Position numbers and translations under genes: made by a program. Shown piece after piece: positions 3,001 to 62,629 of a stretch of DNA of 64,000 bases. This DNA comes from Giardia intestinalis. Taxonomy: Eukaryota. The notes under the pieces are model-generated. The model was not told the DNA's origin and made no database searches. It was given only the letters and a program-made list of their open reading frames with translations. The stretch's first letter is position 1. The number at the start of each line of letters is the position of its first letter. The stretch is from NCBI GenBank assembly GCA_000002435.2, contig CM018793.1. One strand, given 5' to 3'.

Positions 3001-3292
3001 CGACCTGTATGTTGTGAGAACTGTCGGTGCATGCCGTGCAGGTCTGGTCGGCAGGGTTGCAGGTCTGGCAGCCCGCCGCACAGCCTGCGCTAGGATTCTG
3101 TTCGCACCTGTTCTGTCCGGCGACCGGGCCGTATCCTCCCTCGCACTCGCACACCTTCTGGTTGGGGGCAGAGTTCGGCGGGCAATCTGCGGCACAGCTC
3201 TTCCCGTCGACCTGTATGTTGTGAGAACTGTCGGTGCATGCCGTGCAGGTCTGGTCGGCAGGGTTGCAGGTCTGGCAGCCCGCCGCACAGCT
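1..3292. repeat. Perfect tandem repeat array, 207-bp unit (69 codons), about 15.9 copies in the window, truncated by the window start; coding (see minus-strand CDS)
   Basis: The unit acctgttctgtccggcgacc... recurs at 1, 208, 415 and so on. The track's 65-aa ORFs recur every 207 bp with identical translations, so the copies are 100% identical. Identity is lost at about 3291 (cagcCTgcg becomes cagcTTgcc). Confidence 0.95.
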
Positions 3293-44000: not shown

Positions 44001-47000
44001 CTAACTGAGTATTCAGAATTGGGAATCCATTGACTACTTCTGAGTTAATACTAATATGGATGCAGGTGTAGGCCTGAAGTGTTTTTATAACCTCTGTAAC
44101 AAGTAGAAGGTCGTTCCCCTCGAAATTTGAATACATTGTCTCTAAGTAAGGTATTTCAATGTTTTTACTAAAGATTGGAAACATCTTTCTGAATTGTAAG
44201 GGATTTGTTACCGCTAACTGAAAGTCTGAGAGTTGCATCTTAAGAACCTCGGACGAAATTGCGTAGAGAGCTCCGGTCACCTTGCTAAGCCAGTCTGAAA
44301 ACACCAACAGTACTCGTGAAAAAACGCGAATATGGCGCTTATAGTTAAATCGTGCATTCTTATAGGCATGGTTCACCCAACCTAGTTTAGCAGCCGCCTG
44401 TAATGCTACATGCAGTTCATTACTTGATAGAATTGATGGCTCAGTTGGACGAGGCGCTTGGGCCTGGCTCAAGGCCAGGTGAGGCCTTGGTGTCGTCTCG
44501 TTTTGATCAAAGGAACCTGAGAGTCCAAAAACAGTAGGGATTGTGTGGGTAATTGAATTTCTGATATCATATAAAGTGGAAAGACAATAGGAGTTGCTCA
44601 GTTTCGAGATTGGGCCAAGGAAGTCGCAAAGGTAGCATGCAACTGGAGTCCACTGCTTCACAAATAACCCGTGGTCCTCCATCACAACTAGGATTTTGGA
44701 TAGCTTGTCCAAGTTTAATGTTGTAATATTTAACACGGATTCTGTCAGCTGCAGCACCCGTAACATGTAAGAAGAAGCTTGCGTAATAATCTTTGAAATG
44801 GACTCGGTAATGTTTTGGCGTACTGTAATAAAGGCCGAAATAAGAGAAAGCTTAAAGTCGATAAGACTAACAGTAATACTGCCAGTGGAAACATATGAGG
44901 AAATGGCATAAGCATCTAGTATCTCTTGATCGATAGAACGAACCAGCTCAGCCGATATATGCACCATAAGTACAAGATAATCGACCCCCGACGAATTAGC
45001 CAAAGTAACAATATTCTCATTAGGGGACTCTCCTTTTAGAATAACGCTCACGTAATCCCTAGCAATGGTTTCGATAGCAGACAGCGAACGTACAAATCCT
45101 GGCGAGACCTTCATACTGTCTTCGCCCATGCTAGTATAAGGATTAGGTACTTGAGAAGTGTCAAAGCTTTGTGTCTCGTCATCAGGAGTTTCGCTGGGCA
45201 TTTGTGTTTTAAGTAAGTGTTCAGGAGGCGCTGAGTAGACAGATTTTACATCATCTGCGTCGAGGCTAACGTTTGGTAGTCCACTGTCTACAACGAGCTC
45301 AAAAGCTCGATAGAAGCTGCTAATGTTATTACATGTAGAGAGAAGCTCTACAAGTTTTATAGAAAGAGCCTCAAATAGGGTGTCTATTTGCTTCTTCACA
45401 ACAACATCAGTATCAGATGGTGCAATGAACGCAGTTAGGACAAGCGGAGAATCCATAGTGTCCTTCGCATATATAGGATCATTATCTACATCGGAAAAGT
45501 GCATAGCTGTTGTACTAGAGCTTTGTGGCGGCTTTTCTGTTCTGGACGACGGACAAAGGGGAGGAAGTTGCAAATGCATCCTAGGACGAACTATAGGCTC
45601 TAGAGGTATTAAGATATTAGATTGGCGCTGTTTCAAGCCAAGCCAGGACGAGAAAAATTGGTCCACCTCTTGATCAGGGTTTGACAGAAGTAAGTCTTGT
45701 GTTAGTGTGAATGCAAAGTCGTCTGAATCCGTCTGCGCAAGTTGTTTGACGTTGGAGAGAAGGGCTTTGCATATATATCTGGCTGTGGGGACCTCAAAGC
45801 TATACTTATCTAAGAAAAGCAAGGACCGCGTCCGTCTATCTAGAAGATTGCCCAGGGGACGAGAGTAAACAATGGCAGTTTTTTCGGTGGACGTGGGATC
45901 AAACGATAACTGAGGCGCTAGAACAAGAGAATTGATAGAAGAGATAGAAGACTCCGTGGTGTATAAGCAAAATGACAGCTCGCGAAGGCTTTGTTGTAAC
46001 CAAGCAAAACCTGTCACGGAAGTAGATTGGTGAGTGAAGCCAATACTTGAATTCTTAATAGTGAGTGTAGATGAAATGAACGGTGCGTACATTGATGAGT
46101 CTGTACGAAACTGAAGGCGGGGAAAGCCAGTCACTGATAGCAAACTATCCAGAAGATTACGACTCCACATCTCGTGCATCTGCAAAAAAATATTCCCGAT
46201 GTGTGTCTTTATTTGTTCAACCAATGTACGGAGAAAGCGGGGCCATATGCGATCGAAAGCTCTCATTAGGATGGCGTCGCTAGAAAGATCCTGATTCCCA
46301 TCTGCTAGAATAGAAAGCGCGGTATGAATTACGGAGAGTGGCAAGCCAGATGCAAGTAAGCGATCACGTCTGTCACTCTTCGTCTCGGAGGCCTCTTTGA
46401 GTGATTTGACACGAAGCTGTTTGATCTTTGTTGAAAAGTCAATAGAAAAGGTACTATCTGAAACGCATGTTGGAACAATGCTATCTACCACATAATTCAA
46501 CAGGCTCGACTGCAGAAGAGCAACTATTGTTGAACTTAATATCAAGGGAATGATCTTCTCTACGAAGTATAATCGAACAAGATAATACCGTTCCGCCATG
46601 TTAGATATGGGTAAGAACGATGAGAAAGGTTCCATTAATAGAGACCCGCGCTCCTCTGGTGTAGCTTCAGTTTCATACAGTATTGAAAGGTGTCTCCGTA
46701 GGAAAAGTTCAAGAGATTCGGATACATCTAACGCAGGCTTTTGATTGGCAGTCCTGAGGTTAGAGGTTAATGAGTCTGTGTCTTTCGTCTGTGAAGATAA
46801 AGCAGAAGTATTATGTAAGATTGTAGTAACTCTTTTATCCAGAAGAATTTGCAGATCAGTTTTGATTGCTGTACAAAGCTCCTCGTCTATAAAAAACTCT
46901 GTTGCAAGAGATGACACGATAAAATGAGGAATCTCTACAAGGGCGTCTTCTTCTACCTCGTGCGTACCATCAGGGAGAGGAGTAAGGAGACGAAGGACAT

Positions 47001-48339
47001 AATCAATGATTCTAAATATCTTATTCTGAAGCGCAATTAATAAAGGATCAAACTTAGAGCAAGAAAGAAGGCGGTCATGAGCATCCTGAAAGTGTGGCAC
47101 AGAGCAAGGAGGTAGACAGAAAAGCTCAACCCCATAAAGGGTTTTATGGGAAGGATCTACAAATAAGCGTGCGCCCTCTGCATGCTTTAGAGACAGTCTA
47201 GAATAGAAGCGCAAATGATCAAACCTATGGCGTGTATCAAGTCTGTTTGTTTCTAGAGCGTTCTCAACGATGCTTTTAGCAATAACGAACTTATACAATG
47301 AAGAAAGACCATGCAACTCGGCATCTTCTAGATCGTATTTCACTACCATTTCAGAATTTTCCTCGGACGTCTCAGAGGGCGCAAAAGTGAGTAAGCTTTT
47401 TGATATATAAACGCTTGGAACCATTATGTCCAATAGGTAACTGTTAGTGAGCGAGAACTGATCCTCCTGAAGATGTGCTAGTCCTGTTATTGAAGACTTT
47501 AATTCGTCAATGAATAGATGCTCGACACTATCAAGATCTAGCCCCTGGACAAACCCCTTACGCGATGAATACATTACTGTAAACCTTTCCCATTCCCTTT
47601 TAACTAGTACCTTAATCAAAGTAATAAGATGCTCATTTGGGCATACTCCATGCTTTAATACGGGATTCTGCTTAAAGAGGTGGTCGTTAGAGGTTGCAGG
47701 AAGGAGGTATCTGTTACGCCATGGAGTCGTAACTAACTTGTTAGAAGAGTCTGTGTCAAGACTGGAAGCATAAATATCGAGCTCAGGACTAGCCATAACT
47801 GCTTTAATCTCCTTATAGAATATGTTTCCAAGGATACTATTCAGGCTAGCATAACTATTCACGCGAACTAGGGCGAGTGGGGCAACCACTACTTCTCTCT
47901 TCATAAGCAGAACAGCTCGTCTGTATAGAAAATCAACATGGTATATCTGACACCACCTGTAATAGCCAGGCCGCACTAGTATATACCCAGGGCACCCTAA
48001 CTGCATTGGCACACAGTGAAACTGCAAACCATTAAAATTAATCCCTGTGGATATTTTGCTGCAGAAATCTTTTGCACATTGTGTGGTTAGGACTTCTATC
48101 AAATGGACTATTTCATTATGGCAAGAAGAAATTGGAAGTATTGTTGTTACTGCTTTAACTCGGTCTCCATTCTTGGCCTGAATTATGCTGCCTCCCATTG
48201 CTGTGTCGCGCTCGGTCTTCTGCAGCGAGCCTCCAAGAATCTGGGGAACCCGTAATGGTGTAGTGGATCTCTTCAACGACATTCCTTCGTGAAGACAATA
48301 AATATTTATCCTGTTTCTGGTTATCAAAGATAATTTCAT
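29077..48339 (-). CDS. Giant hypothetical protein, 6420 aa, single uninterrupted ORF; one Walker-A-like P-loop (GEAFSGKST) near residue 3540
   Basis: 19.3 kb with no stop in frame. ATG (cat) at 48337-39. Coding-like composition throughout. P-loop at plus-strand coordinates 37684-37710, minus strand. No dynein, midasin or other giant-family signature recognisable by eye. Confidence 0.7.
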   Translation of the reverse strand: MKLSLITRNRINIYCLHEGMSLKRSTTPLRVPQILGGSLQKTERDTAMGGSIIQAKNGDRVKAVTTILPISSCHNEIVHLIEVLTTQCAKDFCSKISTGINFNGLQFHCVPMQLGCPGYILVRPGYYRWCQIYHVDFLYRRAVLLMKREVVVAPLALVRVNSYASLNSILGNIFYKEIKAVMASPELDIYASSLDTDSSNKLVTTPWRNRYLLPATSNDHLFKQNPVLKHGVCPNEHLITLIKVLVKREWERFTVMYSSRKGFVQGLDLDSVEHLFIDELKSSITGLAHLQEDQFSLTNSYLLDIMVPSVYISKSLLTFAPSETSEENSEMVVKYDLEDAELHGLSSLYKFVIAKSIVENALETNRLDTRHRFDHLRFYSRLSLKHAEGARLFVDPSHKTLYGVELFCLPPCSVPHFQDAHDRLLSCSKFDPLLIALQNKIFRIIDYVLRLLTPLPDGTHEVEEDALVEIPHFIVSSLATEFFIDEELCTAIKTDLQILLDKRVTTILHNTSALSSQTKDTDSLTSNLRTANQKPALDVSESLELFLRRHLSILYETEATPEERGSLLMEPFSSFLPISNMAERYYLVRLYFVEKIIPLILSSTIVALLQSSLLNYVVDSIVPTCVSDSTFSIDFSTKIKQLRVKSLKEASETKSDRRDRLLASGLPLSVIHTALSILADGNQDLSSDAILMRAFDRIWPRFLRTLVEQIKTHIGNIFLQMHEMWSRNLLDSLLSVTGFPRLQFRTDSSMYAPFISSTLTIKNSSIGFTHQSTSVTGFAWLQQSLRELSFCLYTTESSISSINSLVLAPQLSFDPTSTEKTAIVYSRPLGNLLDRRTRSLLFLDKYSFEVPTARYICKALLSNVKQLAQTDSDDFAFTLTQDLLLSNPDQEVDQFFSSWLGLKQRQSNILIPLEPIVRPRMHLQLPPLCPSSRTEKPPQSSSTTAMHFSDVDNDPIYAKDTMDSPLVLTAFIAPSDTDVVVKKQIDTLFEALSIKLVELLSTCNNISSFYRAFELVVDSGLPNVSLDADDVKSVYSAPPEHLLKTQMPSETPDDETQSFDTSQVPNPYTSMGEDSMKVSPGFVRSLSAIETIARDYVSVILKGESPNENIVTLANSSGVDYLVLMVHISAELVRSIDQEILDAYAISSYVSTGSITVSLIDFKLSLISAFITVRQNITESISKIITQASSYMLRVLQLTESVLNITTLNLDKLSKILVVMEDHGLFVKQWTPVACYLCDFLGPISKLSNSYCLSTLYDIRNSITHTIPTVFGLSGSFDQNETTPRPHLALSQAQAPRPTEPSILSSNELHVALQAAAKLGWVNHAYKNARFNYKRHIRVFSRVLLVFSDWLSKVTGALYAISSEVLKMQLSDFQLAVTNPLQFRKMFPIFSKNIEIPYLETMYSNFEGNDLLLVTEVIKTLQAYTCIHISINSEVVNGFPILNTQLASQEDQPVTADKHTEHPSSLEPEHGALEFPCQFTEYHVGWQLPYQGYRWPYLYSRPCPDSVSEQSTRESAIQAPTSPLDYLLVTDCNFEFSERSDLFASRNSQGLIVASTYMHGHLCDNKESDIPVDHPSLAHYDVFRMFMELYILIEEIKNVYLRVSSWSRALNIDMHLVDSPAELEAVLLPLCLLVTSFVKLNQLYKAAPSKALIDLDAGALVTLLEICATSISTIRSSFVYSNWTSTADQVDCYLRAITPRLFLLCFLTSPDAIEEDLAGFGEVTGLNAFLRSAPTIHAAPIDTYFEPDRTILVEHLFLYDNTDAMFEAAAAIYARGLVNRQAMVTLNKIDDWINGLNFQPITLTASHRSGHLLSVLYAFWGITGKGEFSDHTIASKLGPVMGGKASSLTSLLQKVRTLILAKEKVLEAYSSRLGILADAADDSSLAQLSSFECISDDISVDEEAGRDDSLFAMQSLDRNKDLFAGSIVLASDVRTRSRAQSITGSLDLTTKQPNQHDHLTSKESLLGVPTLVCCKRHVEYIREAMFAVAYILFNDYSPSTQTVARRLEAELILLHTLAICVQRAMTILPELLLLLPDLCSISLGSAHPRLRKAFLSSQDPLLEVVSLLNIMRQLHSLCKESSEENACCLSGEITSLRGSPVQPSLLPTVGSFGLLRGIVRRCPYIIRSLSLHIARADSILGVFSDTILRFPLVSSFTSNLSLEYACIPCIPATYHAQGQHHVSDLIRRCPLIRSAVLYNNIYTSTSALVPSGKLRPIVFHTSSSAFSNSIYDIMTLRTGTGSSTRLQITGLCAGYEQLRFLKPIDMPDTLPAFGASVFAPSVHRAALIKEYLKGLRLLMEERYEELVGSCLYQCVHYALSTLVFMHLDGSPVNFLQLYYKCMPEFKRAVATVAIGTATVLTDKSLTSCYSLRNYKHDRRMYIQALLARIAEHERTLQTIMEDSLTLYIMRAIPNLSRAATAEKVASFISDEGQVRAAFTELYADAKSQACITAMSCGVHPNVHMHHIISTLPYGLPTESALTEASSSASCGELTDWRKDRVYTTHNQNFLSQKNDETLLVTCANVAIPIIAQYTGKASLLDCIPLNYRQLQAVSQLGISMQSRIPAFLVGDTMRSYNNIDYLIIVHTLCRYFGMRYEFVFCSPATDPDALLHRLCTRILGGRYVVLCGVEFLEESQLNGLINVLSSYNLAKGAVPTVEQADTGPLDFSILHSTGKDAIFPGGYAICLPEAVYEGSKLSLTIRGERLRKLFPMHSLIEIKDYGTLVPVSLLQQTNALLYDLCLEARASTNNVDLHSHKSKATEEQITNFFAEKNLSTEYRLSVSDDIPITALNFDALYPHCNCKHQTEANQLGHLFLQRSSQYGPKLYEISLFLNTAGLSTPQLRPEDVDLVLKRCKDMSNPISVATSLSAFLLSQTTLRPARDIVSRVIEGAFVLQPQHKAVLNSVVSLLNVLHGVQEPNDIDIGMLISRKTHHGTDSNFTANNIAKVWKTLKQMYTPTYAEFCETLSQEFALLEPVGIDALALCLDMLSLGPVVLLPPSTSVLQGTKGTGLTIPQLSNKSVTAQLVKSRALSSITLRQSHFQLLVVFSQLVAKVGKLRPFFIHSLADLHENIRTIMYLGSQALLIFIFNPPSGTLARSMLSSITALQSYYPELELYYNIRAKFDFFNKPRCLLLVTAYETASIIGSNVGSVQRRLIVVPEYLKFSTMLNNYVGRHLHLAEDEQLTEKSRKLFTVTSLIDMKTSALSIQYLQSLCSRRTTAELKGECLAEKRLRLGSKLFGAFITCLTDNLMRREFSIVPSHIVWTLYRQLLVLFLTSFRVLVLSPCHPEAYATFEPIPEVMNTQLYQLDSYLSLHTITSSTPLAKYDSYMQLQSAPRTAFFSVSFSVTYLQNFIYEALDNLSVIINLFLPIYAAVFNALHVLHVMYFKRPLNKLSKIYKKGLVECVYRPEKFVAHVMSMFADSAQLLNKSDLDDAMALLPDLFPEHYADEDDDLSAYSYLGVSDSDGSFLYFVASDKGRRLCVQHFPYMCSSGIFADASFERLFDQSTTPKHELTLTFDCERILFIVYLSSFIMAKLSVCLIGEAFSGKSTYIRAAEIFLGKYVWRECVALFDIDSFDEVLQKLISTCYLHNIQTARTQKTAIEANASHQDGSEAAHYSSSSKAKRARASSVIGCPLSILDVTEDNTLLDETKDINQSIILDVPSGKLPLYHLTVTNLLTSTIAHRVSDDALVARGAADEQRLSMLESLVASASEPQVAVQNDRLSMLLGEKYIIMENSERSPVCGLTGVTGARFSSGIFVPNISIVVESSYLYDFFLASELTFVLPPMNNTKEFLLLLLKRNFQHPSLSNLDSFAPKIAQAHVASAPQPRVSSVHTKNKYDCNLYVGVTEPEQEFLYEYSDSYLLQFIEGLLLVEYHLPVSILRVISEMKRLQKYIDSVDLDNIQLSAVTLGSLMGALRNIPAVKHSHVSCILDELASAVAIGRLAPHGPYGPLNPENMSKYLRTNTLISMSSHTGVQALPNWELRVLKAVFKRSFCNTGTSSSNISKAPGDIDGTLIDSQKFKSGSSIKRFHYSGDIELLNDGGKYKHFVDACARARQHYAKLLFYNPHNNSINRQVFEVHSSVVHECLLDAMDPTVCNRVFTLTIDISMLMEQNSLKVFYYIKYLRNPGLFSKLHSPADAKSMQALALRVPVFLMSQLEMSGTLYSSFLHALQTMGNYRISNRKTFLKVAQQTFSSDMEGFGIDADSQANSFSCSRSVTSLHQTISGRSLSECDGPLLAHAAKNFDLRAFLSITEEPTEIAIKRRQRILIDTQTMIQSLMHQTVGGSESDSEPEPNNITTSSLQSRPVTTTVASENLMIELTDALVSTLTAKSEAAASHYIIRAAVLIALGINPLIAFQDFTPTSSTYLCDRCSSTIPDYLLHYINRGSLEINAEEYTDLFLSTPTDIMVTIPMSLFNALLNKSPAIGILSIVESGSSLLSLFTNGEVRVLGALLAKYFCLTTMLSGKEIINILSRSFSLVVFADTSVDHPLPLQELPVIRHTIDENDRIHSLQVGTAENILQGSYKASETATPSLQLVRAIPYFILSNIPYNLDPKPFITQHEHSETPLHDAYSSMYCEIFCQTTLCIYKCCMQNVSHSIPYSLARFSEVASYYTNELIAKHLKTITFIQKILSSITLFDNGIRNGLFSPSIRNDIIYLRDQLVSIKLKVKLDFIRAVIMLQNACCDGPLIAARLLFYPFITSIWGNCVQFELGLFECLKNRKIMNNSLNTSYSDNSTVMLQSLFNLSTSDELIQRSDMLSNYGLPSRLLMLCEDLMWPRWRTQLTCSLCNPDPKLIQEIIILLQYIKFGFKFLFVTSDLARIIIPACEVYLLEARLEDCKQRLSAMGVNVEQALEKYNATGAINATIEDLVLGTQGSHGDTGKRPEKGVAQYNEMHYLIAELEDLLKQIASLKYSAVSYKRLPSNVRFGAPSTCYNYHEVRRKLLIYLDCHLPPPIFEALLKHALLQDKPIVFLNFGSAAMPMLNMMILTKLALLIESRLTKRNARVSVTTTYSVDIVRPLHDYRIYYVLTTGASLKFLLETGFINLRNCDMSTLNAPKFQFKSNSLNLLRMQNPSVTEHELQYKLREISEKFSSVYSLYVNGFDGLEIVRRESCLECSDRLHRNIENIANNLEKYILSKKEIMSRLVKREESNAVFVHLQHASKDSEGFDFAEMNLYCIGVERCIEHREELAKKIAESSTISEYAKYFGTAITSILLLLRQMSLIHPSIATVFTDHFFECHLSYLDDHVGSNPSRAFTAIVNTAHYILENTVLLLPERERGLYINLFISIYNLCFKLGHPDDLTQLKMILVNDIRFLVSHFSDKFNSHLPLYNYARQIAASCPTSFRCSPTVVYSWKLFSLLSIYNPRRFSDWYEYFTHNKAVFTLLNFAGDAYKMIVGTYLYKERTAQSSDKVKQAELGIAETSKSAIADAIDRTAGDDINLDATVAQEIEEGMRTLKTTHVPIVPPYVHDELAAYSTRLVPLPPSLQYPSFENIWVALLLIVALRQDLILSTMEFFCRITPPSAIHKFLQDDASLRAKAKADWCSANNEAELLSDGLLSRVASATAVAIDAGNLQAEGKETQTRAVGDADGPLDLSVINPANLDHVAQLFKNLQEEYNFEATQQVSLGRGSRTVLLYYDEGLAILPYLQAIFSKEIIPKYGFPDYVCQPAPATSYLATNVVIVDIRYNPHYSLAHLIDLYSSGVKPAYLVYVLVPLSCCQKFGTESGAATPENISVQLAVFIDICRPVQLYVQRPTTFLDAMQHAISTMRNYTLSHSVGCSVYESSFVKALTLLAIRYSMLISNGMFKVDDNEMLLLYVHLISQLKTLPLANQGRRLFFTKKQGAASHIANLPMIYSVLCHTCSEINTSYVLSNLYSLIYRKSSAILIGSPINASVSVAISYLNSKSLNVASFYEEVPTITHDQAEAERTDFDPSLTSIHNSDVEISNSRSVFSSAESSIDDVSMCSFKTDYTYADQRQVDGAPQATSARLMTLAGDELNANVLLNATDPDGFRSYSRAELQKILSSRRHMVTIHASSRMDALLHFPETMSERTLIDLVEKIKLITMDLEKFAMKHTNVAEIIRTQELQERLADTLQPICFLRPELSRCQSTVRDAFSLMLSTDVISNIASHSIHSNAYSSVEVDRAEKALPPTLYAVLLLSKTYQRVRRLTYGFTSNSLVEQSHPIKVLSENIWSVRGDIYQPIMHDILKLFKLQMCLKYNLEMGYYSIVFTLLDPTYYRDWFLRYDGQNCIQCSKIDNRRQKRKHTMPLATVRVTNMRLYGIGYDYMLNTIVDISPESLSYPNNCDIYAILVPCESSSSSMLPDSVKTRDSYLMMYEALSYSSSPPQSEEELAEIDQNFGVDHYYENTIQHVTIPVDFPGCWDLILQNKTSLKKSDIDAKSPYCGTGYF

Positions 48340-48340
48340 C

Positions 48341-48830
48341 AGTTGTACGGTGATTCACTCCACCCACCGGTTGCTTCCAGCGCTGTGCTGCCGGGCCGCC
48401 TGCAGGCACGATTCAAAAATCTCACGAGTAAATTCTCGTTCAAGCTCTGGCCAGTTCAGAGACGACTGTTGGTCATTGATAACATAATGAGAGAGTCCTC
48501 TCTAGTGATATATCCAGAGCCTGGCACATTCCTCTGCCATTTCATGAGCGTGTGCTCAATCCGGGTGTGCGCGTCGGTCTGCCCAGGATTCAGGCCTTCT
48601 CGCAGACCCTCTGCTCTACCGGTGGTGCCTCTCCTTGGCCTGCCGTCTGGTGGGTGAAGCTCGGGTTGCTGTCTTTTTTAGATGCTCCCATCTGTCAAGG
48701 GCTGCCACCGGGCTCTCCGCTGGCTGGGCCCTCGGTGCCCGTCCGGCTGTGGCTCGAGTCAGGGCTCCCACAGTCGCGGTCACCTGGGTCTCAGTGGGCC
48801 GGCTGGTGGGACCGGGTGGGGGGTGTTGTA
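48341..48830 (+). repeat. Arm A of an inverted repeat (VSP-3'-flank-like element, about 85% identical to arm B), abutting the start codon of the giant gene
   Basis: The reverse complement of 48345-48690 aligns with 50600-50870 and with 59031-59360. Shared blocks include ccaggattcaggccttctcgcagaccctctgctctaccggtgg and cttttttagatgc. Homology continues, with more decay, to about 48830 versus about 50420. Confidence 0.75.
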
Positions 48831-50419
48831 TGTGCCCTTGGTGTCAGTGGGTCAGTGGGGTGGTGGGTGATCTCCGCTCTGTTTGCCAAGGTGGTTGTGT
48901 CTGATCCCCAGCCTTCGTTGCACTCCAAGACACAGGCACCGACGATCGTGTCGTGTCCCCTGACTGAGCGCCTCCCTTGGCCCCTTGTCTCAGGCAGTAC
49001 TGCCTCTCTGACTGGCTGGTGCGTGAGTGTCGAGGCAGGCCATCGCAGCCCCTCCTGTTGCTCTGTGCGGGTCTGCTGGGCCCCTGGCATGCCCTGTCCA
49101 GTGCCTCGACGGTAGTTCACCTCGGCCAGCAGGGGTGTGGATGGCCTGTGGATGGGATGGGTTCTCTCGTGCCTCTAGTGTGATGGCCCAGAAGACTGGC
49201 ACAGTGGGGCACTGGTGACTGCACTGTCCCTGTGGTCAGCTGTGCTGCTCCTGGTGGGTCCTCGTTGTGGAGCGCTGTGTGTCGTCCGTAGGCAGAGGTG
49301 AGCCTCCTTGGTCTCAGGATGCTCTACCATGCAGAGAGGAGCACGCTGATGGTTACCCATACCTCACCTGCTGTGCCCGTTCGGGAGTTCCCGATGTGGT
49401 CTACTAGGATCTTGACCCCTCCTCGTGGCTCTGATGACCCCTCGGGGAGAGCCGGGGCATCCTATGCCGAGGGGCGTGCACCCTCCTGCATGAGCTGGGA
49501 CCCACTGCACTGCCTCCAAGGAGGTCTGCTATGAGAGGCAGTGAATGATTGACAGCCCCAGAGTGCGGTGGAGGGTGATCGTGGTCATCTCTGTGACCGG
49601 GCATCACTCTGATGGTCGGCTCTGTGCCTGTGTGGTGCTCATGGGCCACCTGTCTGCCTCATCGCCTGCTGGACAGCCGGCCTCTTGTGGCGTCCGAAGG
49701 CCTCCTCGCTCCTCTGGCTGCTGCCCCCTCAGGTCATCGTGAATGCAGTCGAGGCCAGCGAGTCTGGTGCCTGCCTGGGTGTCATGGGGGGCTGGCAGCT
49801 GTCAGGGCTCTGCCACTGCTCACCTGCCTGGAGTGTGCCTCCCTTGGGTCTGCTGTGCTGCGTGAGTCCTCTGGCTTCCTACCAGGCCCTGACTGTGAGG
49901 GTGACTCCACCTGGCCCTCTGATGCCCCTGTGGATGAGCATAGCAATGTGTCTGGCTAGGGATCTCTGGTGCCCGTGTCTGTCACTGCCTCTCGGGTGGC
50001 TGTCTGGGGCTCTCGCATGAGGTCTACAGTCAGCGTGTCCCGAGCAGACTCCAGTCCTCTCTGGGTCCACACAGTCTGTCCGTGTGTGGACGGTCCTCCT
50101 GCACTCATGTCCATCTGTGCACACTGTCACTCAGTCTCGAGAGCAGACCAGTGCAGTCGCCAGGGCTGCTGTCAGAGGGAGTCGTCTGTCACTACATCGC
50201 TCGAGCAGCCCATGCAGATCAGGCTGGTTGCTGTGCACCCTCATGGCAGGGCTGTTTGACTTCCCTTGGCTATCCTCTCTGTCCCGGTGTGCACGGCTCC
50301 TGAGGGTTGTCTGGGTGGAGGCACTCACAGATCACGAGCACACAGAGGGATGAGTCACAGATGGGCAGCCCCCAGTCACCACAGCTACGATCACCTCACT
50401 CACCAAGAGGTCAGGGGCA

Positions 50420-50870
50420 TATACAAGTACCCCCACCTCAGCCCCCACCAGCCCCACCAGCCTCACCGCCCCACCCACCAGCCGGCCCACTGAGACCCAG
50501 GTGACCGCGACTGTGGGAGCCCTGACTCGAGCCACAGCTGCCCGGACACCGAGGGCCCAGCCAGCGGAGAGCCCGGTGGCAGCCCCTGACAGACGGAGGC
50601 ATCTAAAAAAGACAGCGACCCGGGCCTCACCCACCACGAAGGAAGACCAAGGAGAGGCGCCACCGGTAGAGCAGAGGGTCTGCGAGAAGGCCTGAATCCT
50701 GGGCAGGCAGACGTGCACACACAGACTGAGCACACTTCCACAGAGCGACCGGGGAAGGTGCCAGGTTTTAGATATACTAATAAAGAGGACTCCCTAGTAT
50801 GTCGTCTACAACCAGCCATCGTCCTTGGACTGACCAGAACTTGAACGAGAATTTACTCGTGAGATCCTTG
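50420..50870 (-). repeat. Arm B of the inverted repeat, lying immediately downstream of the 3' UTR of the truncated VSP at 50941
   Basis: The 50607-50865 core is nearly identical to 59031-59290. It is inverted relative to arm A. It starts about 70 nt beyond the VSP poly(A) signal. Confidence 0.8.
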
Positions 50871-50925
50871 AATGCACCGCAGGCGGACCTATCAGCACAT
50901 CTACACAAGCTACGCACAGTAACGC

Positions 50926-50932
50926 GTTTACT
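50926..50932 (-). promoter_or_regulatory. Giardia polyadenylation signal AGTAAAC, 10 nt after the VSP stop (TAGACTTAGGTAGTAAAC)
   Basis: Matches the established Giardia AGTPuAAPy consensus. The context TAG-ACTTAGGT-AGTAAAC is the conserved VSP 3' end. Confidence 0.7.
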
Positions 50933-50940
50933 ACCTAAGT

Positions 50941-52668
50941 CTACGCCTTCCCTCTGCACACGAACCACCAGCAGAGGAACCCTATGAGGCCCCCCACGAC
51001 GACGACCACAGCGACGGAGATCCCCGCGATGGCCCCCGTGGAGAGCCCGCTCCTGTTGGCGCCAGAGGACACACACTTGCCATTGTCTAGACTGTATCCA
51101 TCAACACACTCCCCACATATATTGTCCATCACACAGCTCTTGCAGTCACTCACAGAGCACAGCACACACCCACTACCATCCTTGTTGGGCTTCTTACCAC
51201 TGTCACAGGAGGTGCACACAGCAGCAGCCATGCCAGCCCCAGTCAGAGCTGCTGGGGCTGTACACTGCGAACAGCCATCCACCCCCACATATGCCTTAGT
51301 ATCTACTAGTGTGCCTAGGGGGTTGCCACATGCCAATACAGACTGTTGAGCATTGGTTGCTTCTGGGACTACGAAGTACTTATTATTCTCACTAACAGCT
51401 GTACAGACCCCGTTGTTAGCTGTCTTGCACATATGACTACCGGGGGCCTTCGACACATCATAGCACCCTCCCATATAGAGGAAGTAGTTAGCAGCAGTAC
51501 ATGATGTACAGACACCATTGGCACATCCATTATTATTAGCCTTGTCACTAGCACAGAGACCATCAATTGGTACCTTACCACTATCTCCACAATAAGAACA
51601 ATAATGCTTTGTGGTGCCCTTATCATCTATTACGATGGCATCGCAGGCTCCAGATGTCCCCCCGCAGGCAGTATCATCTTCACAAGTCTTGGTGCATGTG
51701 AGGTCGCCAGGTTCTCCGCTGGGCCTGTAGTTGGGCTTACATTCAGTGCACTTGAAAGTATTGCCATCATTCGAGCAGACACTGCATCCATCGATGCCAC
51801 CTTTGGTTGTATCACTACATAGGACACACTCCTTTGTTCCCTGGGCATCCTTAAGGAAGTACCCCGGCATGCATTCAGTGCAGTCCTGTATGTTTCCCGT
51901 TGAGCCACACTTTGCGCAGTTTCCTGCACAGGGCTTGCAAGTGCTACTCAAGTAGAATCCAGGGAAGCATGCTTTACACACCGGCTTCTGAGAGGCTTCC
52001 TTGCTACACGTCTCGCAGTCTGCTATGCCCTGGTCGTTGCCAGACCCACTGCTATCACCGCACAGTATACACTTGGTATCTCCGTCACTTCGAAAGTGCG
52101 TCCCGTCCTGTCCGACAGTTGCGCACCCAGCAGCATCAACGCACGTTGTCGTCCCGTCGGCAGCAGTTCTTATCAGCTTCCCGTTACAATTGGTGCACTG
52201 AGGCTTCCCCGTAGCATCACTATATTCACATGCAGTGCAATCAGTTATGTCGGGATCACATGCCTTACAAGTCCAGGTCTTCTTGTCTGCGTACTGGGTT
52301 GCCTCGCATTGACCAGCATCTACACATTGATTATTCTTCAGGTACTTCCCATCCTCACACGTTGTGCACTGGCCTGCACCGGTGCAGTCTATGCATCCAG
52401 TAACGCACTTCTTACATGCTCCGTTATCTTTATAGTACCCAGCCTTGCATGTATCACATGTGGCAGCCGTTGGGGTGTTTGGTGCCATACATGTAGCGCA
52501 GCCCTCGACTCCCTTTGTCGTGCCATCTCCCACCGTGTCCCAGCAGAGGATGCACTCGCTACCAGGTTTCTGAGGTGTAACTGGGTTCTTGAACAGGCCG
52601 TTATCTGCCTTACAAGCAGTGCATACTCCGTTACTGGCCTGTGTGCATATCTCACTCCACTATCACCC
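50941..52668 (-). pseudogene. 5'-truncated VSP (variant-specific surface protein) lacking an ATG and signal peptide; VSP fragment or pseudogene
   Basis: C-terminus GGLIGFLCWWFVCRGKA-stop, GGCY motif (YFLYMGGCYDVSKAP) and many CXXC. The track start at 52533 is a GTG. The Cys-rich frame continues upstream to an in-frame stop at 52669-71 with no ATG or hydrophobic leader. The first in-frame ATG (CATCMAPNT) is not followed by a signal peptide. Confidence 0.6.
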
Positions 52669-52682
52669 TATCACTGTACAGC

Positions 52683-52689
52683 ATTCACT
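52683..52689 (-). promoter_or_regulatory. Giardia polyadenylation signal AGTGAAT downstream of the intact VSP (TAGACTTAGGTAGTGAAT)
   Basis: AGTPuAAPy consensus, 10 nt after the stop at 52698. Confidence 0.7.
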
Positions 52690-52697
52690 ACCTAAGT

Positions 52698-54462
52698 CTA
52701 CGCCTTCCCTCTGCACACGAACCACCAGCAGAGGAAGCCGACAAGCCCTCCGACGACGACAATCACAGCAACAGAGATCCCCGCGATGGTGCCTGTGCTG
52801 AGGCCGCTCTTGTTCATGCTGTCTCCTCCAGTGTCTCCGCCGGTGCCATCGTCAGTCTCTTGTCGCGTTATGTAGCAGATGACAGATCCTTGACCATTAG
52901 TTGGAGGAGCACAGCTTACGCAATTAGGCACACCAACTATTCCATTATCGCTATCAGCTGCACATTTGAAACACTTACCAGTACCAGTTCTATAATATCC
53001 AGAATAGCATTCAGTACAAACATCCGAATTGCTAGCCCCACACTTTGCACAGCCCTCAGAACATTCCGGACATTTTCCTCCGGCTGGGCTTTGTCCATTG
53101 GCTGCACATGTCTGACACTGTCCATTCTGAGCGCTACTGCATAATGTGTTACCTGGGTATGCTGTCGACTGATAGCACCCGCCAGACTGCAGGAAGTATG
53201 AACCTGTACAGGCCGTACATGTCCCGTCGTTTCCTGGCGTGCATCCCATGACTTCTCTTGTTGCTGTCGATACGCAAATACCATCTACTGGGGCGTATCC
53301 AGCCTTACACTTGCTGCAGTACTTCGAGCCCCCAACGACGGCCGTGCACTGCCCGTCTGCGCAGTTCTCTGCATACCTTCCCGTGCACTCTGGGATGCAT
53401 GTGCCGGTGGCTCCATCGTCGCCCTTGCTTAGCACATACCCAGGGTAGCAAGCCGTACACGACGTTTTTGCATTAGTACTACAGCTTGCGCATGACTCGT
53501 GGCAGGGGGTGCACACCTTGCTATTAGCATACATTCCAGCAGGGCAGGCATCTAAGCACGCATTCTTTTCTGGAGTGAGATACTTGTTTTGTTCACACGT
53601 CAAGCATGTGACCAAAGGGGTGGCTCTGGATCCTTGAGTGAGCAGACTGCACGTCGCACAATTAGCGATTCCACCATCTGGCGCACTATTACATGCAGCA
53701 CACTTGTTTCCCTGTTGTTCATCGACCTTTGGAAACGTAGCCGCTGTACATCCAGATGCTTCGACGCACGTGCCTGTGCTGCCACCGTCCACTTTCAGAT
53801 ATGTCTTAGTACCAGTTCCTTTACACTTACTACACTTGTTATTGCCTGTTACGGCACACGTAGCGCAATTCTCGTCTTGGCATGCTTCACAAGTGGGGCC
53901 AAAGAACCCGTCCTCACAGGTTGTGCACGTGGCAGGCACAGGATTAGTATCACTTGCTGCTGCTTTGGGTGCATCACACACTTTGCAGTGCAGCACGCCC
54001 TTGTACTTGTGGCTGTTTCCAACCAACACTTCTTCAACATCTCCACATGGTATGACCGATTGGTGTGCATTATCTCTATCTGCACCTGGTGGCACGAAGT
54101 ACCCAGCCTTAGCCTGCGTGCACACTCCAGCATTTGCTGTTTCACACATCGTGTTACCAGGCTCAGTAGCTTTTTTGTAGCATCCGCCTTTGTACATGAA
54201 GGATTCATGAGCACACTGTGTGCATACTCCGTTGTTCTTAGTACTGCACTCGTTGTTGTCTGCCGTGCACTTGCCGTCTGTCGGAGCAGATTGAGACCCA
54301 CTGTCATTGCACTGTGAACAGTACTTCTTGCCGTTGATGACGGCGCTACAGGTCTTGCAAGTGTTGGGGTCACTGCCAGTTACCTCTTCACATTCGTCTC
54401 CGGCTTGCGCTGCCCGTGCCATCTCGAGCATGAGGCCAATCAACAAAACTGCGTAGAACATT
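52698..54462 (-). CDS. Variant-specific surface protein (VSP), about 587 aa from the true ATG
   Basis: The track start at 54497 is a TTG. The real ATG (cat at 54460-62) gives the signal peptide MFYAVLLIGLMLEMARAAQA. The protein is Cys-rich with CXXC motifs, two GGCY motifs (FMYKGGCYKKATEP, YFLQSGGCYQSTAYP), a TM helix and the invariant CRGKA tail. Confidence 0.9.
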
Positions 54463-57400: not shown

Positions 57401-59030
57401 CCCTCGCTCGTTCACCAACCGAGATCCAGATCCAGAGTTCGAAGGTGAGTGTCAAGCGACTCCGGCGGGAGAAGAACTCTTGTTCTGCCCTCTTCCCAAG
57501 GACGAGGCAGGACAACCACGATCAGGGGACGATCATGATGCGCTCCACAAGGCAGTCCCGAGTCCCCTGGAGACCCAGACACTGGTCTTCCTTGAGACCT
57601 AGCAGACTGCGTTCCACTGGATGTACATGGGCGGCATTTGCATGGCGCAGGGAGGCGCAGACTGATGGAACACAGCGGTCTTGCTCGACATAGCGAACAT
57701 TCCAACAGTAGACGGCCTCTGCCAGGCGAGTGTGCCCTGCCCCGAGGAGCTGCGTCGAGGCCTTCCTCCGGCTGCGACGCGCTGCACTCCTGGACTTGGT
57801 CCCTCGGGGTTGAGCATGCTTCTGTGCTGCGGGGGACAGAACCTGCTCATCGGAAGCTGAGGAGATGCCCCGCTCACTGCCCATGCCGACGACAGCGACG
57901 CGACGAGGCAGTCACAGAGGCGACAGGCCCGGCGAAGCAACATGGCTCGACGGTCAGCACTGACAAGTATAGGAGCACAGAGTAGCAGGGGGCCCCCTTC
58001 CTGGCCGGTCTCAAGGAGCCCCCAAGGCAACCGAGGGCCGAAGCCAGTGATGGCACTAATCACTCGCCCCGCTTGTCGAGATGGACCCACACGTGACCTA
58101 TGTGAATCCCTCGACAAGAGATGAGGCCCTTGGGGTGCTTGGCTGACAGAGGCGGATTGATCCTGCCTGCACCGGAGAGTGGTGGCGGCCTGGGCCACTT
58201 GCCGGGGGTCTGCCACAGCAGCTGGTAATGCCTTGACATCCTCGAGTAGACGGGTGCCGATTGTAGAGAGACGGCCTCGGTGAACCGGTCCTGACCGCTC
58301 CTGGTGCCTCAGACGACGCCTCGACAGACCGAAGCACCACCCCAAGTGTGCTGTGCGGTGCAGATGGACCAGCCCACACGTCACTGAGCCAGATGCACTG
58401 CACAGGGTGGGCGTCGACGCGGTCTCGTGCTGGGTGACGGACCACCTGCAAGAGCGCCCTGCGATCCATGAGCAGAGGGCCATACTTCTCCCCGACACAA
58501 CACATGGGAGTACTCCATCGACATCCACGAATGCGTACCACAACCTCAAGATAGAGGGACACGGGGAAAGCGCCCTCCGATCATACTCGGGACTGATGGT
58601 GCCCTCCACGAGGAGACGAAGAGGCACCCGAGGAACGGGGTAGACATCCGAGGTATGGCGTGCGATCTTCGTTATGAAGCACCAGCACCACAAAGCGACC
58701 CTGGAGTACATGGCCAGAGTTAACTGCTCTCGAGACTGGATCGCCGCGACTGACGCAAGGCCAGAGACAACGGGTGCTCACTAGTGCCAGACGGTGGCTG
58801 GCCCCGACAGGCCAGAGCGGAGAGACGCCCCGGAGCGCATAGTGGAGCACCCAACGGCTCCCCGGGCGAGGAGGCACAAGGCTCTTCTCCAGAGTGGACG
58901 GCATCTAAGCTTCGGATCCTGGATTTGGATCTTAGCTAATGCATGAGTGGGAGGCCTGCCCAGAGTGGCAGTGACTCACGTGGGAGACCACTCAGATAGC
59001 AGATGAGAGTAAATTAGGGGACCTTATTGA

Positions 59031-59360
59031 AAAAGAAACAGCGACCCGAGCTTCATCCACCACGAAGGAAGACCAAGGAGAGGCGCCACCGGTAGAGCAG
59101 AGGGTCTGCGAGAAGGCCTGAATCCTGGGCAGGCAGACGTGCACACACAGACTGAGCACACTTCCACAGAGCGACCGGGGAAGGTGCCAGGTTTTAGATA
59201 TACTAATAAAGAGGACTCCCTAGTATGTCGTCTACAACCAGCCATCGTCCTTGGACTGACCAGAACTTGAACGAGAATTTACTCGTGAGATTTTTGGATC
59301 GTGCCTGCAGGCGGCCCGGCAGCACAGCGCTGGAAGCAACCGGTGGGTGGAGTGAATCAC
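59031..59360 (-). repeat. Third copy (C) of the VSP-3'-flank-like repeat, in the same orientation as arm B, with no adjacent VSP coding sequence
   Basis: 59031-59290 is nearly base-for-base identical to 50607-50865. 59291-59360 matches the segment of arm A that abuts the giant-gene ATG (ccggtgggtggagtgaatcac). Confidence 0.8.
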
Positions 59361-60454: not shown

Positions 60455-62629
60455 ATGGCTTATATTAGAATGCTGTTATTGACTTTCTACTTCATAGTGA
60501 ATAGTTTCGCAGCGCCTTGCCAACAGAAGGGGTATCACATGGTAACATGCAAACCGAATAGCTGTGAAAGAGTTGGTGTCATAGAGATTTGTGTTCAGTG
60601 TAGGGCAGGAGGGGTTCCTATCAATGGACAATGCTCTCTATTCGACACTTCTTATGTTGCTGAAGCGAGATGTACCAAAAGTGATGGTACCGCTTTGACA
60701 AGTTCCGATACTACCTGCGGAAAGTGCGGCGGTGAGTACTTTCTCTTCATGGGAGGGTGTTATGGCATAAAGTATAGACCTGGCAATGAGATATGCACTA
60801 GGGCTGATGATGGAAAGTGTACCACTTGTAATACAGGAAATAGTGGTAAATACGTATTTAAGAATGGAGACCCTAATGCTGCGCCGGGAACAGAATGCAT
60901 TCTGTGCCATGATACGATGGGAGCAAATGGATATACAGGAGTAGCAAACTGTGCAGAGTGTAGCCATGCAGGAACTAGTTCTGGTGCTGCTACCTGTGGA
61001 AAATGCCAGACAGAATACTTTAAGAGTGGAGATACATGTACACCATGTGGAGCTGATTGTTGGATTTGTGAATCTACAGCTAAGTGCACAGTGTGCAAAT
61101 ATGGAAAATATATAAAAGAAAATGGTAATGATAGAACTTGTGTAGACACTAGTGGATGTGGTACTGGTAACTATGCAGATATAAGAACAAACGAGTGCAA
61201 GCCGTGCACGGACACAAGTGTCAATGAATGTGCTACGTGTACATACAGTGACACCCTCAGGAAGCCCGTATGCACTGGGTGTAATAGTGGAGGAGCCAAG
61301 CCTCTCCTTAAGGTGGACCTCGATGGGTCAGCGACGTGCGTTGCGGAGGGAGAGTGTGCAAGTGGCAATACGCACTTCCTTGAACAATCTCCAAAGGCTT
61401 GTGTCCCGTGTGGTGATGCTAAGAATGGTGGGATTCTAGGTTGTAGCACTTGCTCCTCTAAAACTACATGTACAAAGTGCCTCGATGGATATTACAATAG
61501 TGGAAATGGTGGTACGGTTACATGCACAGCTTGCGGTGCCAACTGTGCTACATGCTCTGCTGCTGGCAATGATCAGTGCACTAAATGCAAGCCTGGATTC
61601 TTCATGAAACAACCCGGCTCTGCTGGTAAGTGCTTCGCCTGCGACAGTAAAGCCGACAATGGCATCGAGGGGTGCTCCCAATGTAACAGCGGCCTAACCC
61701 CTACATGCACCGATTGCAAGTCCAACTATCGCAAGGAGGGAACCAATCCGGTGAAGTGCACAAAGGCCTGCGAGGACCCCACGGCCTGCGGGGGGACGTC
61801 TGGGGCCTGCGGGGCGGTCGTCGTTGACAGCGCCGGGGCGTTCTCCCAGTACTGCTCGCTGTGCGGAGACCCCGCCACATTCCCCATCGATGGCGTTTGC
61901 ACAGGGGATAAGGGCGGGAATACCTGTGCCAATGGCGTCTGCACCCGGTGTGCTGCCGGGTTCTTCCTCTTCATGGGCGGCTGCTATGATGTGTCGAAGG
62001 CTCCTGGCAGTCACATGTGCAAGAGCGCCGAGGGAGGGAGGTGCACCGTCCCTGGTGAGAGTGGTCGATACTTCATAGTCCCTGGAGCATCCAGCACTGA
62101 TCAGTCTGTCCTGACATGTAGTAACCCAGTAGGCACACTGACAGGTACTGGTAGTACCGCTAAGGCATATGTGGGGGTATATGGCTGTTCGGCATGCACA
62201 ACCCCAGTAGCTCCGTCTGATGGTGGTATGACTGCTGCTGTGTGTACAGCGTGTAACAACAACAATAAGCCCAACCTGGCTGGCAGTGAGTGCCTCACAT
62301 GTACCGTTAGTGGATGCTCGCACTGCAACAGGGATGACATGTGCTCCGCCTGCACAGAGGGGGGCAAGAGGCCGAACATAGACGGCTCCCAGTGCATCCC
62401 CTGCAATATCGACGGGTGCGTCAGGTGCAGCGAGGAGAACAAGTGCGGCCAGTGCGGGGGTGACTACAAGCTGGAGGGTGAGGCGTGCATATTCACCAAG
62501 CCCAGCGGGGGCAACAGGAGCGGACTCAACAAAGAGGCCATAGCCGGCATCGCTGTTGCTGTCATCATCGTCGTCGGGGGCCTCGTCGGTTTCCTCTGCT
62601 GGTGGTTCATATATAGAGGGAGAAAGTAA
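60455..62629 (+). CDS. VSP-like high-cysteine membrane protein with a non-canonical cytoplasmic tail (YRGRK instead of CRGKA)
   Basis: ATG at 60455 after an AT-rich leader. Signal peptide MAYIRMLLLTFYFIVNSFAAP. GGCY motifs (FLFMGGCYGIKY, FFLFMGGCYDVSKAP). The C-terminal about 230 aa are paralogous to the truncated VSP at 50941. TM helix GGLVGFLCWWFIYRGRK-stop. AGTAAAC (62625-62631) overlaps the TAA stop. Confidence 0.85.
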   Translation: MAYIRMLLLTFYFIVNSFAAPCQQKGYHMVTCKPNSCERVGVIEICVQCRAGGVPINGQCSLFDTSYVAEARCTKSDGTALTSSDTTCGKCGGEYFLFMGGCYGIKYRPGNEICTRADDGKCTTCNTGNSGKYVFKNGDPNAAPGTECILCHDTMGANGYTGVANCAECSHAGTSSGAATCGKCQTEYFKSGDTCTPCGADCWICESTAKCTVCKYGKYIKENGNDRTCVDTSGCGTGNYADIRTNECKPCTDTSVNECATCTYSDTLRKPVCTGCNSGGAKPLLKVDLDGSATCVAEGECASGNTHFLEQSPKACVPCGDAKNGGILGCSTCSSKTTCTKCLDGYYNSGNGGTVTCTACGANCATCSAAGNDQCTKCKPGFFMKQPGSAGKCFACDSKADNGIEGCSQCNSGLTPTCTDCKSNYRKEGTNPVKCTKACEDPTACGGTSGACGAVVVDSAGAFSQYCSLCGDPATFPIDGVCTGDKGGNTCANGVCTRCAAGFFLFMGGCYDVSKAPGSHMCKSAEGGRCTVPGESGRYFIVPGASSTDQSVLTCSNPVGTLTGTGSTAKAYVGVYGCSACTTPVAPSDGGMTAAVCTACNNNNKPNLAGSECLTCTVSGCSHCNRDDMCSACTEGGKRPNIDGSQCIPCNIDGCVRCSEENKCGQCGGDYKLEGEACIFTKPSGGNRSGLNKEAIAGIAVAVIIVVGGLVGFLCWWFIYRGRK

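What the first reader, a model, noticed from the sequence alone, without database searches (positions are those of the whole stretch)
59031..59360. Orphan third copy of the VSP-3'-flank repeat, nearly identical to arm B, with no VSP attached
59031-59290 matches 50607-50865 almost base-for-base. This implies a recent duplication or gene-conversion tract between sites 8.4 kb apart. Its extension 59291-59360 instead matches the arm A segment that abuts the giant-gene start. Copy C therefore carries both subparts and may be closest to the ancestral element. No CRGKA-encoding sequence is nearby, which suggests a VSP was deleted here or the element moves independently of VSPs.
Basis: seen in the sequence. 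Interest (0 to 1): 0.6.

Follow-up and report, generated by a model that had tools for sequence, protein, structure and literature searches.

The report
Orphan fragment of Giardia VSP-pair spacer
The 330-base repeat is real: it is a truncated, gene-less copy of the non-coding DNA that normally sits between tail-to-tail pairs of Giardia surface-antigen (VSP) genes, patched together by recent gene conversion with its two neighbouring copies, and it is most likely a recombination relic rather than a new kind of element.

Summary
Window 59031-59360 is a third copy of a repeat also present at 50474-50940 (B, next to a VSP stop codon) and, inverted, at 48350-48810 (A, next to the start of a 6420-codon ORF). 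C is a clean mosaic. Positions 59057-59291 are 235/235 identical to B, and 59292-59360 are 69/70 identical to A. The switch lies in a 26-nt stretch where all three agree, and the leftmost 26 nt are diverged from both. The window is Giardia intestinalis assemblage A (WB-like). A, a 1.66-kb GC-rich non-coding interior and B together span 2601 bp between two ORFs. That matches the 2.4-3.2 kb spacer published for tail-to-tail VSP pairs (Adam 2010; Xu 2020). Diverged paralogues of the arm and interior occur on four contigs of another assemblage A genome, two of them without a VSP tail attached. I found no coding capacity, Pfam domain, Rfam family, tRNA, covariation or adjacent VSP remnant. C is best read as an old, truncated solo arm of a known repeat family, still exchanging sequence with B and A. 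"C is ancestral" cannot be decided. Interest is low to moderate.

The parts
59031..59360 (+). Copy C: truncated solo arm (outer 330 of about 460 nt) of the VSP tail-to-tail spacer family, with no inner arm, no interior and no VSP
59031..59056 (+). Older, diverged layer of C: 5 differences to B and 4 to A in 26 nt. It begins at an A-run that is the left breakpoint.
   Evidence: Fisher p=6.8e-6 against the following 235 identical nt
59057..59291 (+). Tract 100% identical to arm B (50631-50865): the recent conversion or duplication tract, with a 'type I' body shared with B and L009
59266..59291 (+). 26-nt stretch identical in A, B and C. The B-like to A-like switch lies somewhere inside it.
   Evidence: last C=B informative site is 59265; first C=A site is 59292
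59292..59360 (+). A-type tail. Over 59291-59360 it is 69/70 identical to 48350-48419 (inverted) and about 45% identical to the VSP-type tail of B. It ends at the same nucleotide as arm A.
59031..59125 (+). Most conserved 95 nt of the family (mostly invariant in 7 copies), including CCAAGGAGAGGCGCCACCGGTAGAGCAGAG
59272..59285 (-). Conserved small palindrome CGAGTAAATTCTCG carrying AGTAAA, the Giardia poly(A)-signal hexamer, on the VSP-sense strand
   Evidence: pairs 242-257 kept in most copies. Its role is inferred only.
50474..50940 (+). Arm B: the complete arm abutting the VSP1 stop codon. 50605-50865 is the homologue of the C body. 50866-50940 is the VSP-type tail, with the exact extended poly(A) signal at 50926-50940.
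48350..48810 (-). Arm A: inverted partner of B (93% in the inner 163 nt, about 81% in the body). Its outer end lies 10 nt from the ATG of the giant ORF.
48811..50473 (.). Spacer interior: 1663 nt, 60-65% GC, non-coding. The part covered by the two contigs (up to 50101) is mostly 75-94% identical to paralogues L008 and L010.
50941..52533 (-). VSP1: ends in CRGKA but has no ATG or signal peptide. It is the downstream member of a two-gene linear array and probably a pseudo-VSP.
52698..54461 (-). VSP2: a complete VSP with the CAatgTT initiator, a CRGKA tail and the extended poly(A) signal
29077..48339 (-). Giant 6420-codon ORF whose start codon abuts arm A
60455..62629 (+). VSP-family gene with a YRGRK tail, head-to-head with VSP2 across the 6-kb gene-poor region that holds C

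Best explanation
C is a non-coding, truncated solo copy of the arm of the Giardia 'VSP tail-to-tail spacer'.

In its complete form this repeat is about 2.6 kb long. It has two inverted arms of about 460 nt, which run from a VSP stop codon inward, around an asymmetric GC-rich interior of about 1.7 kb. The window holds one complete unit (A + interior + B, 48350-50940) with a VSP on only one side. C is a third, partial arm sitting 8.4 kb away in the gene-poor head-to-head region between VSP2 and a VSP-like gene.

C is an old copy. Its first 26 nt are about 81-85% identical to both neighbours. It has recently exchanged sequence by ectopic gene conversion with both of them: a tract of at least 235 nt shared perfectly with B (a direct repeat), and a tail of about 70 nt shared 69/70 with A (an inverted repeat). 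The junction falls in a 26-nt block of three-way identity.

Shown: homology, boundaries, mosaic structure, absence of coding or RNA signatures, membership of a multi-copy family, and the match of A-interior-B to the published spacer size.

Inferred: that the mechanism is gene conversion; that C itself has no function beyond being a homology block; and that the 235-bp perfect direct repeat with B could mediate deletion or excision of the VSP1-VSP2 array.
For: - Homology and boundaries.
- Mosaic structure: 47 consecutive informative sites with C=B (59063-59265), then every site from 59292 to 59360 with C=A. Divergence is heterogeneous (Fisher p=6.8e-6 and 5.2e-5).
- Larger unit: window 48397-50101 aligns to L008 and L010 at 84-86%, up to the contig ends. 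In L007 and L010 the arm abuts a VSP stop plus poly(A) signal, exactly as B does.
- Those contigs come from assemblage A (IFT46 is 99.1% identical to WB), so the copies at 67-84% identity are paralogues.
- Size: 2601 bp between the giant-ORF ATG and the VSP1 stop. Published values are 2393-3222 bp (Adam 2010, PMC2996952) and 2526-2813 bp (Xu 2020, PMC7000408). Flank identity extends 467 nt beyond the stop, against 318-559 nt published.
- Spacers of different pairs are reported to be highly conserved (bioRxiv 10.1101/2022.03.07.483299).
- Non-coding: 1-2-nt indels and no 3-periodicity; no Pfam hit in six frames; no Rfam family or tRNA; RNAalifold covariation term +1.06.
- Real in independent data: three Logan short-read contigs from different runs all end at projected window position 48379, 30 nt (k-1) into arm A. 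That is what is expected if this tail occurs in more than one context.
Against: - I could not search a whole Giardia genome, so the copy number, the existence of an external donor for the B/C body or the A/C tail, and the frequency of solo arms are all unknown.
- The direction of conversion is unresolved. A-B high identity (93%) stops at 50636 (= C 59062), exactly where B-C perfect identity begins (59057). This hints that B, not C, was overwritten.
- A and C end at the same nucleotide next to unrelated DNA. A discrete element terminus would give the same pattern.
- The first 95 nt are far more conserved than the rest of the arm. A pure relic model does not explain this.
- No read-level evidence for C itself was obtainable. 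Look-ups of ORFs near C were not on record.
Confidence: 0.68

Rival explanations
1. One-step templated insertion. A double-strand break at about 59.0-59.4 kb was repaired by copying from B and then switching template to A inside the 26-nt shared block. This would create C de novo as a B/A chimera.
For: There is a single clean switch point inside a block of three-way identity. Identity is perfect or near-perfect on both sides, and both ends join unrelated DNA sharply.
Against: The leftmost 26 nt carry 5 differences to B and 4 to A, while the next 235 nt carry none. A fresh copy should be uniformly identical. One C-private change also sits in the tail, at 59297.
Confidence: 0.12
2. The spacer is, or was, a mobile foldback/TIR-type non-autonomous element. 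C is a solo terminal repeat left by transposition or abortive excision, moving independently of VSPs.
For: The architecture is two roughly 460-nt inverted arms around a non-coding interior. A and C share an identical terminus next to unrelated sequences. The family is dispersed on several contigs with different outer flanks.
Against: No transposase, RT or endonuclease signal appears in any frame of the unit or of C's surroundings. No target-site duplication is visible at C's edges (read by eye). In B, L007 and L010 the arm continues homologously to the VSP stop, so the arm has no fixed outer end. C lacks the inner 130 nt.
Confidence: 0.07
3. The arm, especially its 95-nt core, is a functional cis-element or RNA gene. 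Candidates are a downstream terminator or alternative poly(A) module for VSP transcripts, an insulator, or a small-RNA source. On this view C is a working extra copy.
For: The core is mostly invariant in 7 paralogues that are otherwise 67-84% identical. A conserved AGTAAA-bearing palindrome lies on the VSP-sense strand. The + strand RNA of C folds with z=-3.1. Alternative polyadenylation of VSP transcripts is reported.
Against: No Rfam family or tRNA is found. There is no covariation support. The minus-strand fold is unremarkable, z=-0.95. C has no VSP to terminate. No paper prints this sequence. Local homogenisation by gene conversion can also produce conserved blocks.
Confidence: 0.1
4. C is an assembly artefact: a mis-join or a collapsed or duplicated repeat.
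For: VSP regions are notoriously hard to assemble. No independent contig containing C itself could be retrieved.
Against: C differs from B at 5 positions and from A at about 50, and it has unique flanks on both sides. Three independent short-read assemblies break exactly 30 nt into the A tail, as expected if a second context for that tail exists.
Confidence: 0.03

Closest known systems
Spacer and 3'-flank repeats of Giardia tail-to-tail (inverted) VSP gene pairs (Adam et al. 2010, PMC2996952; Xu et al. 2020, PMC7000408; bioRxiv 10.1101/2022.03.07.483299)
   Same: A-interior-B spans 2601 bp between ORFs (published range 2393-3222 and 2526-2813 bp). The inverted flanks are similar up to 467 nt beyond the VSP stop (published 318-559 nt) and then diverge abruptly. 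No gene lies between them. The spacer is homologous to spacers at other loci. C is homologous to the outer 330 nt of that arm.
   Different: Here only one side carries a VSP, and it is a start-less array member. The other side abuts an unrelated giant ORF. The arms are only 84% identical rather than nearly identical. C has no partner arm within 3 kb, no interior, no inner arm and no VSP. In the papers I read, I did not find solo or truncated arms described.
Arm-to-arm and ectopic gene conversion in palindromes and segmental duplications (e.g. human Y-chromosome palindromes; from my own knowledge, not tested here)
   Same: Tracts of perfect identity are embedded in older divergence. Exchange occurs between both direct and inverted copies a few kb apart. 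Switch points lie in shared identity.
   Different: The copies here are very short (0.3-0.5 kb) and non-coding, and the partners are unequal in length. The mechanism is inferred from the sequence pattern only.
Solo LTRs, solo TIRs and MITE-like remnants of transposable elements
   Same: An isolated terminal-repeat fragment lies away from the full unit. It shares a terminus with another copy (A).
   Different: There is no target-site duplication, no transposase or RT anywhere in the unit, and the outer end is variable in other copies, where it runs on into VSP 3' UTRs.
Giardia non-LTR retrotransposon relics (GilM/GilT/GilD), reported in head-to-head VSP spacers
   Same: C is located in a gene-poor, GC-rich head-to-head VSP intergenic region, where such relics are reported.
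   Different: No RT or endonuclease domain appears in six-frame scans of 56900-59420 or 48340-50940, and there is no poly(A) tail.

Membership tests
Giardia VSP tail-to-tail spacer (arm) | Sequence homology to spacer arms at other VSP loci | tested here: met
   C aligns to arms on L007-L010 at 67-84% and to A and B in the window. nhmmer arm profile gives E=6e-97.
Giardia VSP tail-to-tail spacer (arm) | The arm starts directly after a VSP stop codon and the extended poly(A) signal ACTYAGRTAGTRAAY | tested here: not met
   Met for B (50926-50940), L007 and L010. Not met for C: there is no exact signal and no VSP 3'-end profile hit within 2.8 kb. C carries the VSP-less A-type tail.
Giardia VSP tail-to-tail spacer (arm) | An inverted partner arm 2.4-3.3 kb away across a gene-free interior | tested here: not met
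   Met for A/B (2601 bp between ORFs). C's only inverted partner is A, about 10.4 kb away (10,351 nt between the two copies), and C's left flank is unrelated to the interior.
Giardia VSP tail-to-tail spacer (arm) | Full arm length (318-559 nt of flank identity beyond the stop) | tested here: inconclusive
   C retains 330 nt and lacks the inner 130 nt shared by A, B and L007-L010. It falls inside the published range, but it is truncated relative to its own family members.
Transposable element (TIR/foldback/MITE or non-LTR relic) | Transposase, RT or endonuclease coding remnant in the unit or next to the copy | tested here: not met
   Six-frame Pfam scans of 48340-50940 and 56900-59420 at E<=1 gave no relevant family. 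ORF scans were also negative.
Transposable element (TIR/foldback/MITE or non-LTR relic) | Target-site duplication or poly(A) tail at the copy's ends; insertion polymorphism | tested here: inconclusive
   No direct repeat is visible at 59031 or 59360, and there is no 3' poly(A) (by eye). Polymorphism could not be tested without other genomes.
Structured non-coding RNA | Match to a curated family, or covariation supporting a conserved fold | tested here: not met
   Rfam at E<=1 gave 0 hits and ARAGORN gave 0. RNAalifold covariation term is +1.06, with 3 of 46 pairs showing double changes.
Protein-coding gene | An open frame conserved between copies, codon-periodic substitution, and homologues | tested here: not met
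   Indels of 1, 2 and 8 nt occur between copies. Substitutions by phase are 75/82/73. ORF homologues are found only as spurious calls in one assembly, with protein identity below DNA identity. Two further searches were empty.

The most novel reading that the evidence does not exclude
The 2.6-kb spacer with its 460-nt inverted arms and near-invariant 95-nt core may be a dedicated recombinogenic cassette that nucleates inverted duplication and exchange of VSP genes. It would not be a transposon in the usual sense. Orphan, chimeric arms such as C would then be footprints, or active donors, of this process. The perfect 235-bp B/C direct repeat would be a live substrate for excising or deleting the VSP1-VSP2 array. 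That would give Giardia a DNA-level route to remodel its antigen repertoire, alongside epigenetic switching.
Probability: 0.12. Interest if true: 0.65.

Novelty: new member of a known kind. Interest (0 to 1): 0.3.

Why it matters
Inverted VSP pairs and their uniform spacer of about 2.6 kb have been called a "cryptic observation" (Adam 2010). How the Giardia antigen repertoire is duplicated and reshuffled remains unsettled.

This locus adds three things:
- The spacer can occur with a VSP on one side only.
- Its arm can survive as a truncated orphan.
- Copies 8-11 kb apart, both direct and inverted, still exchange tracts of 70-235 nt.

That is modest, concrete evidence for ongoing ectopic gene conversion in VSP-flanking DNA. 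It also yields practical markers for a genome-wide census: the 95-nt core and two body types. For annotation, the region should be labelled as repeat or relic DNA, not as a gene.

Tried and rejected
- **Exact-protein look-ups** of VSP2, of the VSP-like gene (two alternative starts) and of the 370-codon ORF left of C were all 'not on record'. I therefore retrieved no independent contig covering C.
- **Homologue searches.** The 210-aa arm A ORF also returned nothing. Only the first search, with B's 118-aa ORF, gave hits.
- **Scan of JGI metagenome contigs** for the 30-nt core gave 0 hits.
- **Rfam, ARAGORN and RNAalifold** gave no RNA family and no covariation.
- **A tRNA- or SINE-like reading** of GGTAGAGCA...CCTGAATCC was rejected. 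The tools are negative and the box spacing is about 10 nt too short.
- **A GTATGT 5' splice-site reading** at 59222-59227 (agTATGtc; the ATG is at 59225) was rejected because it is not conserved in A, L007 or L008.
- **The 49-codon ORF at 59225-59374** was rejected because the frame is not conserved and the tail differs between copies.
- **Homology of C's right flank** to the giant-gene 5' end, or of its left flank to the spacer interior, was rejected on Smith-Waterman scores against shuffles.
- **A second complete module to the left of C** is not supported. The outer part of the putative left arm (56900-57344) scores only marginally against the arms, and the arm profile finds nothing there.
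- **Search of 1.84 billion representatives** with the giant protein's first 400 aa found only a 103-aa fragment and weak hits. It is uninformative about whether arm A truncated that gene.
- **Literature search** for the core sequence found no paper.

Full report
**Organism and map**

The window encodes Giardia variant-specific surface proteins (Pfam VSP; CRGKA tails). Its RFC subunit is identical to G. intestinalis WB XP_001708042.1/KAE8305254.1.

The relevant features are:

| Coordinates | Strand | Feature |
|---|---|---|
| 29077-48339 | - | Giant ORF |
| 48350-48810 | inverted | Arm A |
| 48811-50473 | . | GC-rich interior with no ORF |
| 50474-50940 | + | Arm B |
| 50941-52533 | - | VSP1: CRGKA tail, no ATG or signal peptide |
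| 52698-54461 | - | VSP2: CAatgTT initiator |
| 54.5-60.4 kb | . | 6-kb gene-poor region containing C (59031-59360) |
| 60455-62629 | + | VSP-family gene ending in YRGRK |

**Observation**

All three copies are real. C vs B is 94.6% over 297 nt (E=4e-129). C vs A is 84.6% over 331 nt.

Similarity ends sharply at 59031 and 59360, where flank alignments score no better than shuffles. A profile of seven arm copies finds only A, B and C in the window.

**Mosaic structure**

Site by site, the pattern is:
- C equals B and differs from A at 47 consecutive informative sites (59063-59265).
- C equals A and differs from B at every informative site from 59292 to 59360.
- The switch lies inside a 26-nt stretch (59266-59291) that is identical in all three.
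- B-C identity is 235/235 over 59057-59291, but there are 5 differences in the first 26 nt (Fisher p=6.8e-6).
- A-C identity is 69/70 in the tail against 80.8% in the body (p=5e-5).

So C is an older copy carrying two recent exchange tracts, or it was the donor of both. One hint about direction: the 93% A-B similarity of the inner arm stops at 50636 (= C 59062, I1). This is just where B-C perfect identity begins. That is most simply explained if B's body was overwritten by a C-type sequence.

Bodies fall into two types: type I (B, C, L009) and type II (A, L007, L008, L010).

**The true unit**

A search with an ORF of arm B found four spurious ORF calls on contigs of one ENA assembly. Those contigs are assemblage A: IFT46 is 99.1% identical to WB. 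Their arm copies, at 67-84% identity, are therefore paralogues.

Window 48397-50101 (arm A plus interior) aligns to L008 and L010 at 84-86%, right up to the contig ends. In L007 and L010 the arm abuts a VSP stop plus extended poly(A) signal, as B does. L008 and L009 have other tails.

The interior is non-coding: indels are mostly 1-2 nt and substitutions by phase are 75/82/73. Even so, it is mostly 75-94% identical between paralogues, which is better than the outer arm.

**Comparison with the literature**

- Adam et al. 2010 describe identical tail-to-tail VSP pairs separated by 2393-3222 bp. The 3' flanks are identical for 318-559 nt and then diverge abruptly. They call this 'an interesting, but cryptic observation'.
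- Xu et al. 2020 list 12 such pairs at 2526-2813 bp with no gene between them.
- A 2022 preprint reports that spacers of different pairs are highly conserved.
- A-interior-B spans 2601 bp between ORFs, with 467-nt arms. It is therefore one such spacer, but with a VSP on one side only.

**What C is not**

- No Rfam family or tRNA.
- No covariation.
- No Pfam domain in six frames around C or in the spacer.
- No VSP remnant abutting C.
- Not obviously an artefact. Three independent Logan contigs end at projected position 48379, exactly 30 nt into the A tail. This implies that the tail occurs in a second context in those read sets too.

**Verdict**

C is a truncated solo arm of a known repeat architecture, shaped by ectopic gene conversion. 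Its function, if any, is unproven. The near-invariant 95-nt core and the terminus shared by A and C remain unexplained. A whole-genome census could not be run with the tools available.

Noticed in passing
window 57352-57444 and 58910-59002: A real inverted repeat of 93 nt at 75% identity (Smith-Waterman score 71 against a shuffle mean of 16). It brackets a 1.46-kb GC-rich segment without ORFs and ends about 28 nt from C's left edge. The architecture resembles the A/interior/B unit, but there is no detectable homology to it. Both arms contain a poly(A)-signal-like ACTCAGRTAGCAG.
   Followed up: partly
window 56167-56240 (+): A weak relic of a VSP-type 3' end (nhmmer E=4.5e-4). It reads ...WLVYCGKT... 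followed by TGAGTAGCAAAC, and there is no upstream transmembrane or cysteine-rich coding sequence.
   Followed up: partly
window 48340-48360: The giant ORF's ATG (48339) lies 10 nt from the outer end of arm A, and the in-frame upstream stop (TGA) lies inside the arm. The arm may therefore have replaced or truncated this gene's 5' region or promoter. The first 330 aa found no counterpart in the 50%-cluster library.
   Followed up: partly
window 1-3405: An array of at least 15 perfectly identical 207-nt tandem repeats inside ORF 116-3316 (+), running off the window start. Short-read contigs break at its edge, around position 3555-3563.
   Followed up: no
window 50941-52533 and 52534-52697: VSP1 has no ATG or signal peptide and lies 164 nt downstream of VSP2. 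This fits the published description of non-expressed downstream members of VSP linear arrays. Their last 143 nt plus flank are 84% identical (D13).
   Followed up: partly
window 60455-62629: A VSP-family gene with a non-canonical YRGRK tail, no PyAatgTT initiator and no extended poly(A) signal. It is probably a CRMP/HCMP-type relative rather than a true VSP.
   Followed up: no
window 63016-63864 (-): An ORF carrying only the C-terminal domains of ubiquitin-activating enzyme E1 (UBA_E1_SCCH, E1_UFD). The upstream frame is broken by stop codons, so this may be a pseudogene, a frameshift or a split gene.
   Followed up: no
window 48811-50101 vs L008, L010: The non-coding interior of the spacer is better conserved between paralogues (mostly 75-94%) than the outer arms (59-80%). 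It is also strongly A-poor on the + strand (AT skew down to -0.44). The reason is unknown.
   Followed up: partly
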